Origin: Podarcis tiliguerta | Taxonomy: Eukaryota | Direction: 5' to 3' (one strand) | NCBI GenBank assembly: GCA_965153285.1 | Contig: OZ229119.1 | Length of the DNA: 64,000 nucleotides | In this document: positions 17,266 to 64,000 of the stretch, piece by piece | How the letters are laid out: every line of letters starts with the position of its first letter | Position numbering within the stretch: position 1 is the first letter of the stretch | Program-made: the position numbers and the translations under genes | Notes under the pieces: model-generated | What the model saw: only the letters and a program-made list of their open reading frames with translations | The model's database searches: none | What the model was told of the DNA's origin: nothing

Positions 17266-17465
17266 NNNNNNNNNNNNNNNNNNNNNNNNNNNNNNNNNNN
17301 NNNNNNNNNNNNNNNNNNNNNNNNNNNNNNNNNNNNNNNNNNNNNNNNNNNNNNNNNNNNNNNNNNNNNNNNNNNNNNNNNNNNNNNNNNNNNNNNNNNN
17401 NNNNNNNNNNNNNNNNNNNNNNNNNNNNNNNNNNNNNNNNNNNNNNNNNNNNNNNNNNNNNNNNN
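17266..17465. other. Assembly gap (200 N) in ADIPOR2 intron 1
   Basis: Run of exactly 200 n. Confidence 1.
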
Positions 17466-50502: not shown

Positions 50503-50598
50503 TCACCGCAAGAGAAGAGCTGTGGTTCCCAGAGGAAGGAAGAGCAGGGCTAATGAGGCAGAAATCTCTGCCGCTCCTCCACAGTCCTGGGCGTTTTC
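50503..50598 (-). CDS. CACNA2D4: CACNA2D4 last coding exon: ENAQDCGGAAEISASLALLFLPLGTTALLLR* (GPI-signal-like tail)
   Basis: On the minus strand, ctttgtttttcAG|GAA AAC GCC CAG GAC TGT GGA GGA, stop TGA at 50505-50503. ENAQDCGGA matches the alpha2delta-4 C-terminus, with a small-residue omega site followed by a hydrophobic tail. Confidence 0.92.
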   Translation of the reverse strand, partial: ENAQDCGGAAEISASLALLFLPLGTTALLLR

Positions 50599-51093
50599 CT
50601 GAAAAACAAAGCAAGTATGTGGTCAGCAAGTAGAATTTAGAGGGCAGCAAAAATTAAAGCCTAGCTTCATTTTAACTTGGGCCAAATGATTGAAACTTTT
50701 TTTGCAATGGCGATGGCCAAATCCACCTCCCGATAAAAATTGATCCATTCATAGGGCTGGCAGGATAAACTGTGTCCGTGCAGAATATGCGTGCTCATGA
50801 GTGCCTACCACATGGCAAGGAACCCAATGCACTTGGCTATATGTATAACGTGTGCACAGGCTTGCTGCATACATCACATCAAACACACACTGATGGACAG
50901 GTGGGGGCACTGTGCCCTATTTTTAGGGCCTCCACATAGGCAAACAAGTGAGGCAGCCTTGAGGTGGTTAAAAATGAATCTATGGACTGACATTTCAAAA
51001 CCCAGCTTATTTTATTTAGGCCAGCACATTATCATGGCTGCTGTGGCGCAGAGCCTACTTTGTCAAATGCAACAATTCCTCAACCCGCCTTAC

Positions 51094-51176
51094 CTCAGGA
51101 TGGAATGCATGGCAGGTATCTGGTCGCCGCCTCAGCTTCTGGGAGCGCATCCTGTCACATTTCACTGACGCATTAT
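51094..51176 (-). CDS. CACNA2D4: CACNA2D4 penultimate exon: (Y)[27 protein letters not shown]
   Basis: 83 nt, preceded by an AC acceptor (U12 type) and followed by GAG|GTAAGG. The peptide is nearly identical to alpha2delta-4 as I recall it. Confidence 0.95.
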
Positions 51177-53006
51177 GTGCAGTGCTGTTAAGGTTAATAG
51201 CAGTTTGGGGAAATGGTGAAAATCAGAAACAATCCCATTTATGGAGGAGCTGTGTTGCCCCAGAATTCCAGTTTACAACTAGGCTGTACAAGTCATAAGA
51301 TGTATTCCCATAGAGGTGCCCTTGATTATGAAGCTACTGCAAGGCCTTTACTCACATGGAATGCCATGCACTCATTCTAGCATAAAGGGTGCTGTCACAG
51401 GCAGGACATGTCTCAAAATACTTATGCTACACCTGGTAAGTAAAGGTAACGGTAAAGGGATCCCTGACCATTAGGTCCAGTCGTGGCCGATTCTGGGGTT
51501 GCGGCGCTCGTCTAGCTTTATTGGCTGAGGGAGCCGGCGTACAACTTCCGGTTCATGTGGCCAGCATGACTAAGCCGCTTCTGGCGAACCAGAGCAGCGC
51601 ACGGAAACGCCGTTTACCTTACCGCCGGAGTGGTACCTATTTATCTACTTGCATGTTGACGTGCTTTCGAACTGCTAGGTTGGCAGGAGTAGGGACCGAG
51701 CAACGGGAGCTCACCCTGTTGTGGGGATTTGAACCACCAACCTTCTGATCGGCAAGTCCTAGGCTCTGTAGTTTAACGCACAGCGCCACCTGCGTCCTGG
51801 TAAGTAGGTGGGCTCAGTTAAGATCAGCTAGGATTTTTGAGCATAGTTAATCTGAACACTGCTTAAATTCTATTGAAACTAGTAGGAGTTAATTTTCCCA
51901 TTGATTTCAACATGATTTTAGTTGGAATGGAGCCATCATGGGTGGCTGCAGAACCAAGCAGCAGCTTTCAAGGCTAGTGATCACACTTAATGAGCAAGCT
52001 CCACTCCAGGAGCAGTTAGCCAGGGGTAAGACCTACTGGAAACAATGGGACATAAGTTAGTCACAACCACCTTGAGCATAATTAGGGCTACAATCTACAT
52101 ATTTTTCCAGGACTATTGCTGCAGAGCTTAAATTTGTCTACTGAAGGAGAAACTTACTGTTATATTAACTGTGTCTTCATAGTTTCATGTGTATGCCTTT
52201 AAAAGAAGTATTCCTTGCAAGTTTTTTAAATAACCACTCTTTCCCCCACAAACATACACTCCACTGCCCCAATGTAAATCTCCCTGTTGGTGTCCTATGC
52301 ATCTATGCCATGGTTCTGGTCCAGAACAAGAGTCCCTGCAACTGTAAAAAGCAAACACGTGCCCACATGGGAAGAAGTAGCTCCCGTAATAAGCAGTTTC
52401 ACCCTGGCATTTTGGAGCTGCAATGCACAACATCTTTCTGTACCATTCACTGGCTTACAGCAAATAAGTCCATTGGTCCATCTCACACAGTATTAATGTA
52501 TTATGGTACACAAAGCACATGGTCCACCATTGACCTAGGACTCCTTCCTTAATTAGGCTTCTATTTTGCAAATGCTAATGAAACCAACAGCATCTTCATC
52601 TACACAGAACTGTGTGGGGACATACTTCAGAGTGAAGACTATTTTCAGGTTCTAGAGAGAGTTTAAAAACTAAATAGCTCTTTCCGTCTAAAACTAAATC
52701 TCTTTCTGTCTTATGCCTGGTACCCCTGTGTTTTTTTCTTTCCACCTCCTTTCCAGCAATTGAGGAGGCATCTAGAAAAATGCACACAATCAATCCATAT
52801 AGAACTTACCAAACAACAGTACGCAATCGTAATTAGCAGCACATTAACTTGCCATTGCTTTTGCCATGCTTTCCATTAGAACGTATGCAAATTCTTCCCA
52901 CCCCAAAGAACTACTAAAGCAAACCCTCTGCATCAATTCACTGTTGGAAAAATGTAAAACACAAGAACTGTGCAGCCCAGTACAACCTCTACCGGAAGAA
53001 GGATAT
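51177..53006 (-). other. CACNA2D4: U12-type (minor spliceosome) AT-AC intron of CACNA2D4
   Basis: Minus-strand 5' end |ATATCCTTC (53006-52998), branch site CCTTAAC (51193-51187), 3' end GCAC| at 51177, no polypyrimidine tract. The junction T|AT restores Tyr in EVKYNAS. Confidence 0.93.
51443..51797 (-). mobile_element. Sauria SINE, full length, inside the U12 intron
   Basis: Same head, body and tail as the 3644 copy. TSD cctggtaagta at 51432-51442 and 51796-51806. Confidence 0.92.
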
Positions 53007-53119
53007 ATTTGACTTCTTTAGGTTGCAGTAGGACAGGTGGAAAGATGCTGCAGTCACATACAGCATCCACAACCAGGAGCAGGAGATTGCTGTTGGTAAT
53101 TTGCTGCACCACAAACATC
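53007..53119 (-). CDS. CACNA2D4: CACNA2D4 exon: (K)MFVVQQITNSNLLLLVVDAVCDCSIFPPVLLQPKEVK(Y)
   Basis: cccttacAG acceptor, 113 nt, QQIxNSNLLLLVxDxxCDCS motif of the delta subunit. It lies within track ORF 52933..53145. Confidence 0.95.
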
Positions 53120-53199
53120 CTGTAAGGGCGAGAAGATCCCCCCACCCCAAGAGACTATGGTCAGAACAGAAGGTTACAGAATACTCCCCTTGCCCCTTC

Positions 53200-56700: not shown

Positions 56701-57102
56701 ACAAGGCCTGGTTTCCAGTGAAGAGTGTGGCTGAGGAGAGTTCTAAGGACCAGACAGAGAGACTAGGAGGGCAAAATGTGGTTCTGGGTCTGAGGTCCCC
56801 CACCTGTGCACTAGGCAAAGAGTGTGTTCAAGGCAGACCTTGGTACCTGGCAGGTTCATGCAGAAGGAAGTGGTCTGTGAGGGACCTGGGTCCTAAGCAA
56901 TTGTCACTACTATTGTTATTAACGGACACTTGAATTGAGGTTGGAATAGTTCATAGTTGCAGGCAATTCAGAAGAAATTGTGGAAAATAAGAGGCATTGC
57001 AAGGATAACAAGGGACAGTTAGTTTGCTTGGAGATCAGACTAACCAGGGACAATTGAGAGGCACAGGTAGGAGAAAAGGAAGAAAGAGAGCACATTTCTT
57101 AC

Positions 57103-57220
57103 TTCTGACAGTCTCCGCATTCAATAATCCCATTGGTCTCTTTGATGGCAGGTTCATATACAAACACTGGGTATTCTGTGTCACATGGCTGTAGCATGTC
57201 GTGCTTCTTGTGCTTGTGAG
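57103..57220 (-). CDS. CACNA2D4: CACNA2D4 exon: (A)[38 protein letters not shown](K)
   Basis: cctctttttccccatctcAG acceptor and AA|GTAAGA donor, 118 nt, [11 protein letters not shown] motif. Phases match the flanking exons. Confidence 0.95.
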
Positions 57221-57326
57221 CTGAGATGGGGAAAAAGAGGCTGAGTGAGAAAATCAGGTGAAGGAAACAAATGAGGTGTGGAAAAAAGAAGCGGAAAAAT
57301 GTTGACCCAAAAACGAAGATTACTGG

Positions 57327-57343
57327 CAGCCACTAGGTGGTGT
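57327..57343 (+). promoter_or_regulatory. CTCF-like motif, forward (one core mismatch)
   Basis: CAGCCACTAGGTGGTGT. Confidence 0.4.
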
Positions 57344-60300
57344 GGGAGACTCAGTGTATGAGGATGCCCTAGAAGCATGAATATGGCCACCCTTCAGCCA
57401 ATGGTCGGATTATGTAGCTATCAGTCTGACAGGCTGTTTACTGCTAGAAAGTCAAAATACACAAACAAGTGGGAAACCACTTGCAGTTAGTTCATGGTTA
57501 GAATCAAACCAGCTGGCCAAGACATTACTAGGTGGCTCATATGGGGGAAACAGGAAGACTTTTTACTAACGACAGTGACTGCGTGAAATATAGCGGGCTG
57601 AGCTGGGCTAGTACAGCACCAATCTTTAGTAACTGCAGCTAAATACCTAAGAAGGAAGCTTTACTAGAAAGAAAGTCCACTACCCAGCTCCCACTAGCCA
57701 ACATAGGAACTGACTACTTGCAGTGGAAAGATCTACATTTTGGGGACCCTGAAGCTTGAACTGTTACGGGGGCCCTTCGGCATCAGCAACAAAGCCTGAG
57801 TAACCACTGTTATCTTCTTCAATGGGGTTGTTCCATGACAGATCACCAAACCTTTACAACACCTGTGCTACTGACTTTCAGACTTTGGAATTGTTGAAAT
57901 ATATACAAAAATAATAATAATCACTTTTGAAGTTTCTGGAAAGCTGAAATCCAAAACATTTAAGAAAGCATAAATATTGTTAATTTTGTTGCATGTCAAC
58001 ATTTTTAACATTTAGGTGCATTATTTATTTATTTTAAAGAAACACCAGGTGTCATTGTGATATTTTGAAGGACAATGTATGATGTTTAGATTTGAGGATA
58101 GCTGAGATAATGCATGGATATGTTTGCACAGAGAAAAAAATAATTAGCTGCCAGATAGTCAGGGAGTGGGTGAACTGGTTGGTTACCAATAACAGCAGAA
58201 GTTTGCATTTGATAAAACTAACTGTGGGGCTGCTGTTCTTCAAACAGAGAAATGCCTAAAATGCTGTTGGACATTTGCATCACACTGGCCTGAGGGAGAA
58301 AAGCTGTGCTGGCATTTATTCTCTTGTGTGATGACGACAACTCAGAGACGCAAAGATACTGCAAATGTCACACAAACACGTATAGAGTCTGTGTCACTCA
58401 TTGGGAGTCGAGACAGTGACAAATATCCAAAAAACACACCTTTTTCTAGTTTGTTTTTAATCTATCCATTTTTATCTCCCTGCCCTTCAAGGAGCTCAGG
58501 ATCCTCTTATCATCACAACTCCCTTCTCAGGTAGGTAAAACCTGTGAACTCTTGGAATTGGAATCAAGCAGGTGGTTGAGCTTGTCCAACACTCTAACAA
58601 TCCTGGCTCTTTCACAAATCTGTGACTGTAGCTTTTGTGAAAATTGCAGTGCTCTCTAATCTGGACACAAAGCTTGCAACACCATTGCACACAAAATGAA
58701 GACTTGTGTAGCCCATCTGTCAAGCACCAGTGAAGCGGGGAGAGAGAACGGGACTCGCCTTTCCTTGTTGCTTCCTGCTGGGAAGTGAGTATCAGAGCTC
58801 CCATTGCTTTGTCACAATGGCACCTGTCCTTCCTGAGGGGTTTGCAGGTGACTGAATCTCTGCTTCAGTGAAACCATCACTGACAATCTGATTCCTCCCG
58901 TTGCTTTTCTTTGCCTGTAATGTTGTTCACCAAGTTTCCCTCAACGTAGCTATGCAGCAGATTCCCTGTTCTAATCTTTCAACTATGAAGCAGGCTATTT
59001 TAACACAACCTCCCTCAACTGGGATTAAAACCGAAATAAATTTATGCCAGATGGTGCAATGAGTATTGCAAACAACACCTATTTCTTCTTCCTAGGTCTT
59101 ATTAAGTTTCCATGCTGTATAGCAAGGATTTGTCCGGTCCTGCATATGTCACCCTGATGTTTTGCATTACCCCTCTGCCCTAAATTGGTTGTCTTGTCTA
59201 AGGTCTTCTAGATAAGATTCCAACCTGGAACCCCTCAACTCACCAACTCCCTAAAAACTAATAAAGGCAGCTGATTAGACAGCTTGTTTACAATGTGACA
59301 AAATGTAGGTGGGCAGGAGTCTTAACCACAGTGCAATCCTGATTGGGGGAGCCAGATTTAGCATCTGTATAGATAGACCCCATATTCAGCACTCAATATA
59401 TTTTCTAGGTTTCTCTTCTAGTGCACCTTACTAAAACCTAGAAATTACCCAACATGGAAAATATGTGGCCTATCCAGGATGCAAAACTGTGAGTTACAGC
59501 CGTGCAGTTACATGTCCACAACCAGCTCACTTTACATATCCAAACTTTGACTCTCCCTCTCCTCAAGGTAGAACTGCATCAGTGTCATGTATGGAAGGGA
59601 AGATCCACAGCATGCTTTCCATCTTCTTATTGTGTTTCATTCACAAATAACATTTGCTCTTGGAGCCACAGAGATTCATTCTGTTCAAACTCCCTTTTGT
59701 CTCTCTGTTAAACCACACTTTAACTGGATCGGAAGTGAATTTCCTCATACCCCAAACAGTTCCTTGGACCCAGAGCAATAACAGCAATAAATTGAGCCTG
59801 GGGAGAGGGAACAAATCCAGTCAGCTTCAACAGCGCAGAACACAGTGAAGCCACGGCTACATTTGGGGCAGGGCATTCCCTTCCCCCCTCACCCCCCAGC
59901 TTCATTCCACAGATGAGCATGAATTAACACCTGAGCAGCATCGGCAAAAGGGAGCAAAATGTCACTGCCATCCTGATATTTGCAGTCACATTGATCTGGA
60001 AAAATAACAACAGAGATAGGTTTTTAAATTGCTGGCATTTCACTGTCAGCAGGGCAGCCCAAAGATATTTTTTTTCTAGCCCAAGCAGCCGTCCATGTGA
60101 CCAGAGATCGGCACCTCTGCACCATTTTATGATATAGCAAAGGGCATTGAGTTTCTGTATCTCTGCTTTCCTAAGTCATATATTATTAAATATACAAGAC
60201 CACTGAGTGGTTTACATAAAACACAGTAAAATTGTATGAAATCTCTCTCACAGATTGCTAGATGTTACGGCACGTGCACAGGACAGCTGCTCCCCAGCGG

Positions 60301-61252: not shown

Positions 61253-62800
61253 ATCCCCTGTTGTTGGGTTTACTGGTAGCTAATCATGATGACAAATAGT
61301 GTAAACGATGCAAAGAGTTTTAATATTTATCTTGGTTAGCTATATCTTATTGACATAAGGGCAGCTCCCATATTCCTTATTTCTATAGACAAGCCATTTA
61401 TCAGCCAGCCTTTGTCTGAATGGTGGAGGGGGAATAAAGGGCTAGAGCTGCTTATTCAGCCAACCTGTAATCATATCTGCTTCTCTAACATAAATAAATT
61501 ATGAGAAAGTTGAATGAACTTATTTATTGAAGTTGCTCTAGCCATCAGAACCTGACTATCTGCAGTTGTCTGAATAATACAGTTTTGCTGGATTTCCAGT
61601 TGAGTGATTACCACCTGTCCTCATGCAATTCTGCAAACAGGCTGAAGTTTCTTTCGGATAGATTCTTGCCCACCTCTAGCTAATTATCTCTACTTGCATT
61701 TTGTACCTACTGAGAATGCAAGAATGTCCTCTCATGTTTCTTTCTGAGCTCCATATTTGACCTGGATCCTCTGATTATTATGGATCCTTTTAGAGCAACC
61801 ATAGTACATGGGAGCTCTGCTTGGGGCTCAACTAAGGTTACCTCCCTTCCTGCATGATGCAACCACCACCATGTCTTTTCTCTTGCACGAGTGGCACCTC
61901 CCTAGTCCACCCTTCCTCCTTTCTTCATCATCCTGTTGTTGGGTTTACTGGTAACATGCTAATTATCATGCAAACACTTAGGCCTGGCCTGATTCAATTA
62001 CCACTCATGAACAATTGAACAGAGGAAATAACTCCTTGAAGTTCTTACTCTACCTCTAGACCTTGGGATACTAAGCATTATTTGAGACATCAGGCGCCAA
62101 CTCCAGAAGCAGCACCTATTGGTCTGGCCTAGTATGACAGATAGCAAGATCAGACTGTAGATTAAAAGCACCATAGGAAGGCCTATGCATTTGTATAATG
62201 TGTAAATGTATTGAGAATGATATGGGGGGGAGGGAGGGGGTAGAATAGAAGATGGAATGCTGATAAACCTTGCAACTTTTCAAATACTAATTTGTTCCTT
62301 TATAATGGACCAGGCTTGTTGTAAAATATCATTAATATTGAAGGGCAAGATTTGCAAATATCAATATAAGATTCACTTTAGCAGTGTACAACAGAATTCT
62401 CCACCCATTGCCTATTTCCCAGTAAGAACTGCTGCCATGCAACCTTAGTTCATTTCAGCAAGGCTTATATGGGTGAACCCACATGCTTTGCACAAGCTGC
62501 TGTTGTTTGCACATATTGGCACATCCCTAGAGCTGCTGTACATCTTTATATTCAAGGTTACAGCTGGACCAGCAAGTGCAGAAACGTGCAGTGAAGTATG
62601 CCAATCACAAAGTGAGTGGTAGCCCAATAATTAAACAAGTAGTGATATCTCTGTTTTCAACTAGGCAGTCGCAGCTAATTCCTGAACAGCTGTGAAGTGG
62701 GAAAGAAATTGCCCCCAGTTTTCTGGGCAAATCTGCTTGGGTGTTCTCCTGTTTCCAGAAAATGGAGATCTTTTTGCCGCACTATAATGATTCTACTTAC

Positions 62801-62821
62801 CATGATGGAAAACAGCCTTAG
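62801..62821 (-). CDS. CACNA2D4: CACNA2D4 21-nt microexon: (A)KAVFHH(A)
   Basis: On the minus strand, tatatAG|CT AAG GCT GTT TTC CAT CAT G|GTAAGT, phase 1-1. It corresponds to the AKSVFHHS segment that precedes HKHKK in mammalian alpha2delta-4 as I recall it. Confidence 0.88.
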
Positions 62822-63442
62822 CTATATAGGTTGCATGGCATAACATGTGATGCAGATGAATCCATGATGATGATCACAAGATGGTGGTAGAATTCCATGG
62901 TGAAGACACATGAATAGGAAGAATGGGAAATGAAGAAAGAAAGAGGAAGAATGACATGGTGGTGAAATGAAGAAATAATTGTTCACAATAGCAACAATGA
63001 GTGTGAGACTACTCCTTAAAATTCACCTGCCTTTACAGTTAACTAAACTGCTGTTTCATGAAAAATATGTTTTATTGTCTTATATCCTTCTTTCCTTCAC
63101 ATAAGCCTATGTGAAGTGAATGTGATTTACTTAAAAATACGAGAATATTTGACACTGAAAGCTTTGGCCTGCACACTCCTAAATGTTTAGGAGCAGGCAA
63201 TGCTTTCAGAAACAAGTACAATATTGGAAGTACACCCTGGACTAGAGAGAGACAGCTATTCTATCTGGTTAAAATATGTGTAAGCAACATAATGTATGTA
63301 ACCAGCATATTACTGTTGCCAAACCCTAGCAGGCAGTACCATAAGTAACATTTGCTGTATGAGATTGTGCTTTTGAAATGATTCCTGCCATTTATTATTA
63401 TTTTTAAACGAAACGAATTAAGAATTAATTATATTTAGAAAG

Positions 63443-63443
63443 T

Positions 63444-63495
<52 letters not shown>

Positions 63496-63497
63496 TC
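63443..63497. repeat. (TTTC)n microsatellite
   Basis: Directly visible. Confidence 0.98.
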
Positions 63498-64000
63498 ACA
63501 AAAGACTGCCTGTGTTTTTCTACTTTTAGCTTACATTGCTGTTATGTTTCAAAAATTATCTCCAAGAAACGAAGGACAGGAATGGAAGGAATAAAGTTTC
63601 GTAATTTTAAGAGCTCATAGTCAAAGCGACACTTGCTCAGAGCGCATGTGATCCACAGACCACAAGTTACCCACATTGCTGTTTTAGACACTGTACCACA
63701 GGCTTTTAGGGGTCTTAACACTGACACCCTTCCCTGCACGTTCCAAGCAAAGTGCATGTAGATGAAAGAACTGGCCCACTGCTTCAGCAAATAGTTGTTA
63801 GTAGTCTTCCATCCACCTCATGGGATACCCCAACACAGATCACATATATGAGCCGACACAGTTGACAGTGTTATTAAACCTTGCCAGTATATTCCAGGGT
63901 GTCTCAATAAAGGTGAGATGGAAGCTGGCGAATAGATTCTCAGTGCCAACAGGGTGACAATGTCTCTGGATTGTGCTAAATTGCATTCGTATGTGTGATT

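What the first reader, a model, noticed from the sequence alone, without database searches (positions are those of the whole stretch)
62801..62821. The microexon encodes the residues at the predicted alpha2/delta proteolytic site
Seen: both this microexon and the next exon (57220) begin with CT in phase 1, so skipping cleanly removes 7 codons, turning xKAVFHHAHKHKK into xHKHKK (x is Ala if the upstream exon ends in G). Known: alpha2delta precursors are cleaved into disulfide-linked alpha2 and delta (LEA/VEM in alpha2delta-1), and cleavage is needed to enhance CaV currents. By position, about 20 aa upstream of PCDTEYP, the alpha2delta-4 site falls at the start of this exon. Inference: splicing could tune proteolytic maturation of alpha2delta-4, and inclusion also lengthens a His-rich patch (HHAHKH) that might sense metal or pH.
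Basis: inference. Interest (0 to 1): 0.7.

Follow-up and report, generated by a model that had tools for sequence, protein, structure and literature searches.

The report
Known photoreceptor microexon beside predicted cut
This 21-base exon of a lizard calcium-channel subunit gene (CACNA2D4) is real and matches an exon already known from mouse photoreceptors; it adds seven amino acids just after the place where the protein is predicted to be cut in two, and it likely changes the loose end left by the cut rather than whether the cut happens.

Summary
62821-62801 (minus strand) is a 21-nt, phase-1 exon of CACNA2D4. The upstream exon ends in G, so x is Ala, and skipping removes 7 codons. Spliced contigs of related organisms include it. 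It is the orthologue of a published photoreceptor-specific exon: inclusion 0.82-0.90 in mouse retina, 0-0.12 without photoreceptors; zebrafish has it too. The exon lies in the disordered alpha2/delta linker, at the intron that in alpha2delta-1 coincides with the mapped cut. But the residues before the cut and the first Ala after it are the same in both isoforms, and the skipped linker is as long as those of cleaved paralogues. Teleost versions of the exon lack the histidines. Mice lacking the exon had normal a-waves and histology. That test is weak, because a-waves stay normal in one full alpha2delta-4 knockout. I found no paper that maps the alpha2delta-4 cut. Verdict: known exon; the cleavage-tuning idea is untested, about 20% likely, and cheap to test.

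The parts
62801..62821 (-). 21-nt phase-1 cassette microexon of CACNA2D4; completes the Ala codon and encodes KAVFHH plus the first base of the next Ala
62795..62800 (-). consensus 5' splice site GTAAGT, the only one between the flanking exons
62822..63021 (-). intron upstream of the microexon: 20 YCAY motifs (NOVA type), UC-rich tract (PTBP type), UGC at -19 and -14, acceptor AG with a weak proximal pyrimidine tract; regulatory role inferred
57103..57220 (-). downstream exon, 118 nt, begins with CT; encodes the His/Lys stretch, PCDTEYP and the first strands of delta
62822..64000 (-). intron running to the window's edge; the upstream exon (56 nt, ends in G, encodes the end of alpha2) lies 68-123 bases beyond the window, at G000:C10:56484068-56484123
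50503..53121 (-). three further delta-chain coding exons to the stop codon (inner edges approximate, from tblastn)

Best explanation
This exon matches the known photoreceptor-included 21-nt Cacna2d4 microexon and adds seven residues to a linker predicted to be disordered, just after the predicted alpha2/delta cut; both isoforms are likely cleaved, so the exon likely lengthens the free N-terminal tail of delta, with little effect on channel maturation. Shown here: exon, frame, inclusion in spliced contigs, shared intron position with the alpha2delta-1 cut. Shown in papers: photoreceptor-specific inclusion in mouse and no a-wave or histology phenotype on deletion. Inferred: position of the cut in alpha2delta-4; cleavage of both forms; repression outside photoreceptors by NOVA/PTBP proteins on the upstream YCAY/UC tract, with SRRM3/4-type activation through the UGC motifs.
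For: Orthology: the mouse exon is 21 nt, followed by a 118-nt exon, in the 3' part of the gene; the lizard has 21 and 118 nt. The upstream exon is 53 nt in mouse and 56 here, and the two mammalian loops are one residue shorter. The mouse reverse primer matches the lizard downstream exon at 15 of 20 bases (compared by eye). Linker: in the AlphaFold model of a lizard orthologue (pLDDT 88.6, pTM 0.85) residues 951-972 are the only long internal stretch under 50, and the microexon is 962-968. Intron homology: in this genome the alpha2delta-1 exon starts exactly at the Val of VEM, in phase 1. Residues from that split codon to the conserved Cys: alpha2delta-1 17, -2 15, -3 11, -4 skipped 13, -4 included 20. 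So the skipped form lies within the range of its paralogues; -1, -2 and -3 are reported fully cleaved in vivo (PMC5092059). ADAM17 has no absolute consensus and acts on the unlike sites of -1 and -3 (PMC9016415). Exon-deleted mice: normal a-waves and H&E to 12 months (PMC9509328).
Against: The knockout paper reported a-waves only, and a review lists a normal a-wave with lost scotopic b-wave for a full alpha2delta-4 knockout (PMC11938310), so a synaptic effect could have been missed. The exon keeps its 7 codons, the Ala-Lys start and mostly an aromatic residue at position 5 from teleosts to mammals, which suggests constraint. Replacing six residues across the site abolishes cleavage of -1 and -3, so local sequence can matter. 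No skipped joint was seen in the 4 runs laid. Downstream UAG and total UGC counts are at background, and the splicing factors are inferred from motifs alone.
Confidence: 0.6

Rival explanations
1. Inclusion tunes proteolytic maturation: the seven residues form the prime side of the site (or a second site before Val/Phe), so photoreceptors cleave and activate alpha2delta-4 more efficiently than cells that skip the exon.
For: The exon begins at the intron that coincides with the alpha2delta-1 cut. The phmmer alignment to rabbit alpha2delta-1 places the bond between the split Ala and the first exon-coded Lys. In this lizard the exon holds an Ala-Val pair 16 residues before the conserved Cys, the spacing of the alpha2delta-1 site. 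Cleavage is required for current enhancement by -1 and -3. A salamander retina blot shows 150 and 130 kDa bands, read by its authors as whole and cleaved forms (PMC3548577).
Against: Ala-Val occurs in 9 of 26 distinct non-teleost loops and 0 of 28 teleost loops; rabbit alpha2delta-1 itself has Ala at P1'. Five of the six positions aligned to MTAKAQ are unchanged by skipping. The skipped linker is longer than that of alpha2delta-3. No gross phenotype on deletion.
Confidence: 0.2
2. The exon acts apart from cleavage: the longer delta tail alters contact with a synaptic partner or the matrix at the ribbon synapse.
For: Photoreceptor-specific switch; alpha2delta-4 organises rod synapses with ELFN1 (review); splice variants of alpha2delta-2 change wiring without changing currents (review PMC7351808); disordered, exposed position.
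Against: No partner was tested here; only three of seven positions are well kept across vertebrates; H&E was normal in the knockout; zebrafish also includes the exon in muscle (bioRxiv legend).
Confidence: 0.14
3. Inclusion completes a His-rich metal or pH sensor.
For: Inclusion raises linker His from 4 to 6; the first exon His is present in 26 of 26 distinct non-teleost loops and the second in 22.
Against: 27 of 28 teleost loops have no His in the exon; four His remain after skipping; the segment is predicted disordered, with no site geometry.
Confidence: 0.06

Closest known systems
Mouse Cacna2d4 photoreceptor-specific 21-nt cassette exon (mm10 chr6:119,345,430-450; PMC4991804, PMC9509328) and its zebrafish homologue
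   Same: Length 21 nt, frame-preserving, followed by a 118-nt exon, same gene region; traced to cartilaginous fish by the authors.
   Different: Longer introns here (1.2 and 5.6 kb against 0.33 and 1.7 kb); upstream exon one codon longer; tissue specificity in the lizard not shown. The passages I saw do not relate the exon to the cleavage site.
alpha2delta-1 cleavage site LEA/VEM and the alpha2delta-3 predicted site MTAKAQ (PMC5092059, PMC9016415)
   Same: Same linker and same phase-1 intron; flexible region, described as not completely resolved in the alpha2delta-1 structure.
   Different: Different sequence; no in-frame microexon candidate of this quality in the lizard alpha2delta-3 intron, and the alpha2delta-1 intron is under 100 nt; the alpha2delta-4 site is not mapped in anything I could read.
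Neural microexons regulated by SRRM3/4, PTBP and NOVA
   Same: 27 nt or less, frame-preserving, strong donor, UGC close to the acceptor, inserted in a surface loop.
   Different: In mouse it is skipped in the photoreceptor-less retina; the gene appears only in expression tables of the Srrm3 retina paper's supplements.

Membership tests
alpha2delta-4 (CACNA2D4) | best sequence matches are alpha2delta-4 and the fold is that of alpha2delta | tested here: met
   98-100% identity to lizard alpha2delta-4 entries; top 11 matches are alpha2delta-1 chains or chains of calcium-channel complexes, TM 0.71-0.74 by query length
Cacna2d4 photoreceptor microexon orthologues | 21 nt, in frame, before the 118-nt exon | tested here: met
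Cacna2d4 photoreceptor microexon orthologues | spliced into mRNA | tested here: met
   full inclusion in X9 and X10, one joint in X5, none in X1; runs are of related organisms, tissue not on record
Cacna2d4 photoreceptor microexon orthologues | skipped outside photoreceptors | tested here: inconclusive
   no skipped joint in 4 of 4 runs laid, but contigs drop rare variants; skipped database proteins may be gene-prediction misses; shown for mouse in PMC4991804
alpha2/delta cleavage site | lies in the flexible linker between the last alpha2 helix and the first delta strand | tested here: met
   pLDDT under 50 at 951-972, helix 926-951, strand 978-990
alpha2/delta cleavage site | position homologous to the mapped alpha2delta-1 bond | tested here: met
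   within one residue of the split Ala at the 5' edge of the exon
alpha2/delta cleavage site | conserved Ala-Val scissile pair inside the exon | tested here: not met
   9 of 26 non-teleost and 0 of 28 teleost loops
alpha2/delta cleavage site | delta N-terminus mapped by sequencing or mass spectrometry | not testable with these tools
   none found in searches; a database annotation starting human delta-4 at the split Ala is recalled, not from a call
SRRM3/4-type microexon | UGC close upstream of the acceptor and a strong donor | tested here: met
   UGC at -19 and -14, GTAAGT; total UGC count is at background
SRRM3/4-type microexon | inclusion depends on SRRM3/4 | not testable with these tools
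   the gene was shown only in expression tables among 18 supplementary files of PMC9303857 (3 of 4 occurrences seen)
Musashi-activated photoreceptor exon | UAG clusters in the downstream intron and loss in Msi1/2 knockout | tested here: not met
   4 UAG in 200 nt, reached by 26% of 739 gene windows; the mouse exon is not among those named as downregulated

The most novel reading that the evidence does not exclude
Photoreceptors use a conserved microexon to rewrite the prime side of the alpha2delta-4 maturation site, so splicing sets how much alpha2delta-4 is cleaved and how much CaV1.4 current is switched on at ribbon synapses; the published knockout missed this because it scored only a-waves.
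Probability: 0.2. Interest if true: 0.62.

Novelty: already known. Interest (0 to 1): 0.28.

Why it matters
The exon is known and was called dispensable. What this check adds is its exact place, right after the homology-predicted alpha2/delta cut, and the point that the knockout was scored with a readout that can stay normal without alpha2delta-4. If inclusion changes cleavage or the delta tail's contacts, it would link splicing to the proteolytic checkpoint of calcium channels and explain why the exon is conserved. The mouse line and a retina proteomics data set already exist, so the test is cheap.

Tried and rejected
PDB sequence search with the 39-aa downstream exon found nothing; longer queries found alpha2delta-1 and no alpha2delta-3 or -4 chain. 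The run search listed no holder on record as RNA ('no RNA holder listed'); spliced joints in the contigs were used instead. Only 4 of 20 listed runs were laid, so skipping in lizards and the tissue remain open. X1 gave a contig that runs from the downstream exon into the intron, with no joint. The first AlphaFold run (58 close orthologues) had pLDDT 43.6 and was not used. A scan of most of the lizard alpha2delta-3 intron gave 7 AG..GT candidates; the one with GTAAGT has an in-frame stop, and none was taken as real. Counting back from the conserved Cys was rejected as a way to place the cut, because the distance varies from 11 to 20 residues among paralogues. Skipped forms among database proteins were not taken as proof of skipping. 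Three primary papers on retinal alpha2delta-4 (Lee 2015, Wang 2017, Kerov 2018) were not held; their content is cited only through a review. Earlier findings of the scan: none.

Full report
Setting. The window is G000:C10:56420001-56484000 of a 1.46-Gb genome. The exon at 57220 matches alpha2delta-4 proteins, best those of wall lizards at 100% identity. tblastn with two orthologues traces CACNA2D4 on the minus strand from about 201,000 (extended coordinates) to the stop near 50,503.

The observation. 62821-62801 is 21 nt between AG and GTAAGT. The downstream exon is 118 nt. The upstream exon lies just outside the window, at 64123-64068, is 56 nt and ends in G. Both later exons start with CT, so the split codon is Ala either way and skipping removes seven residues in frame. 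The donor is the only GTAAGT in the 6.8 kb between the flanking exons.

RNA. I laid 4 of 20 listed runs, all assembled contigs guessed to be RNA, from related organisms of unrecorded tissue. X10 (depth 92.6) joins the flanking exons through the microexon, in a version that reads Ser at the third position. X9 has one 176-nt contig with 21 letters between the flanking exons. X5 shows the joint from microexon to upstream exon. X1 shows only a contig reading into the intron. No skipped joint was listed; contigs drop rare variants.

It is a known exon. PMC4991804 (passages and supplement rows seen) lists a 21-nt Cacna2d4 cassette, flanked by exons of 53 and 118 nt, with inclusion 0.82-0.90 in four wild-type retinas and 0-0.12 in four photoreceptor-less retinas. 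PMC9509328 (section 10, passages, supplement rows; its figure alignments not seen) gives the zebrafish exon as 21 nt, deletes the mouse exon and finds normal a-waves and histology to 12 months. The preprint legend traces it to cartilaginous fish and notes inclusion in zebrafish muscle. Orthology rests on lengths, gene position, the primer match in the downstream exon (15 of 20 bases, by eye) and the peptide in mammalian proteins.

Where the cut falls. PMC5092059 and PMC9016415 (passages seen) place the alpha2delta-1 cut in LEA/VEM, show that replacing MTAKAQ blocks cleavage of alpha2delta-3, and implicate ADAM17, which has no absolute consensus. The term alpha2delta-4 had no occurrence in either main text. 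I read the same exon boundary in the three paralogues of this genome. All have a phase-1 intron here, and in alpha2delta-1 it splits the Val codon of VEM, so the intron marks the cut. That gives three placements for alpha2delta-4: before the split Ala (intron homology), after it (phmmer against rabbit alpha2delta-1), or one residue earlier than the first, inside the upstream exon (alignment to the middle of the alpha2delta-3 hexapeptide). In all three the residues before the bond are the same in both isoforms. A fourth placement, anchored without gaps on the conserved Cys, falls on an Ala-Val pair inside the exon, but that pair is poorly conserved. From split codon to Cys there are 17, 15 and 11 residues in alpha2delta-1, -2 and -3, and 13 or 20 in -4. 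Skipping therefore does not make an unusually short linker. Searches (listings only, apart from the papers named here) gave no paper that maps the alpha2delta-4 cut or links the exon to it; subscription papers are not covered. A salamander blot suggests partial cleavage in retina (PMC3548577, passages).

Structure. A model of a lizard orthologue with the exon, from a 70-sequence alignment, has pLDDT 88.6 and pTM 0.85 and matches alpha2delta-1 chains best. The exon is residues 962-968, in the middle of the one long low-confidence internal segment, 951-972. An earlier model from close orthologues only was poor and was set aside.

Conservation. A pattern that requires Ala/Gly-Lys at the start picked 90 of 219 proteins, so those two positions are partly conserved by construction; in the length-based set 30 of 31 distinct loops also had Lys there. 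Among 26 distinct non-teleost loops, position 5 is Phe or Tyr in 26, position 6 His in 26 and position 7 His in 22. Among 28 teleost loops (group assigned by hand from the hit names), 27 have no His in the exon and 24 keep Phe or Tyr at position 5. So length, the Ala-Lys start and one aromatic residue are old; the His pair is not universal.

Regulation (inferred). The 200 nt before the acceptor hold 20 YCAY motifs; 1 of 739 gene windows reaches this, the next highest of 29 other acceptors has 11 (positions partly approximate), and 6 of 2000 dinucleotide shuffles reach 20. The stretch is also UC-rich, with UGC at -19 and -14. PMC4991804 reports that photoreceptors lack NOVA1 and PTBP1. That NOVA bound upstream represses an exon is recalled knowledge. 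Downstream UAG is at background, and the mouse exon is not named among the Musashi-dependent ones.

Against my reading. The knockout was scored by a-wave only. A review table lists a normal a-wave and no scotopic b-wave for one full alpha2delta-4 knockout, while a frameshift mutant does show a reduced a-wave (PMC11938310, passages). So the exon's dispensability is not settled for synaptic output. Conservation across jawed vertebrates also argues for some role.

Verdict. Real, already described exon; correct placement next to the predicted cut; cleavage tuning unproven and less likely than a small or neutral change to the delta tail. Interest 0.28.

Noticed in passing
window 62822-63021 (minus strand): Dense YCAY cluster and UC-rich tract upstream of the microexon, the highest of 30 acceptors counted in the gene; a candidate NOVA/PTBP silencer that could explain photoreceptor-specific inclusion without Musashi.
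   Followed up: partly
window 57221-57420 (minus strand): The acceptor of the downstream exon has the second-highest YCAY count (11) and the same pyrimidine fraction.
   Followed up: no
teleost proteins such as P0173 and P0129: The teleost exon keeps 7 codons but is Ser/Pro-rich with no His, and both loop lengths occur in the same species' database entries.
   Followed up: partly
window 62816: An AG inside the microexon could act as a 16-nt, frame-shifting alternative acceptor; no contig showed its use.
   Followed up: no
L042:202-414 (window 57102-57314): Run X1 has a low-depth contig that reads from the downstream exon into the intron: unspliced RNA or DNA.
   Followed up: no
L002, 70958-71033 in extended window coordinates: Two exons before the upstream exon, the gene encodes a second His run (four His after the conserved Cys), on the alpha2 side of the linker helix.
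   Followed up: no
window 17266-17465: A 200-base run of N far from the finding.
   Followed up: no
window 52212-53121 (minus strand): Database protein P0001 reads through the intron after the 53121 exon into a non-homologous tail, apparently a gene-prediction error.
   Followed up: no
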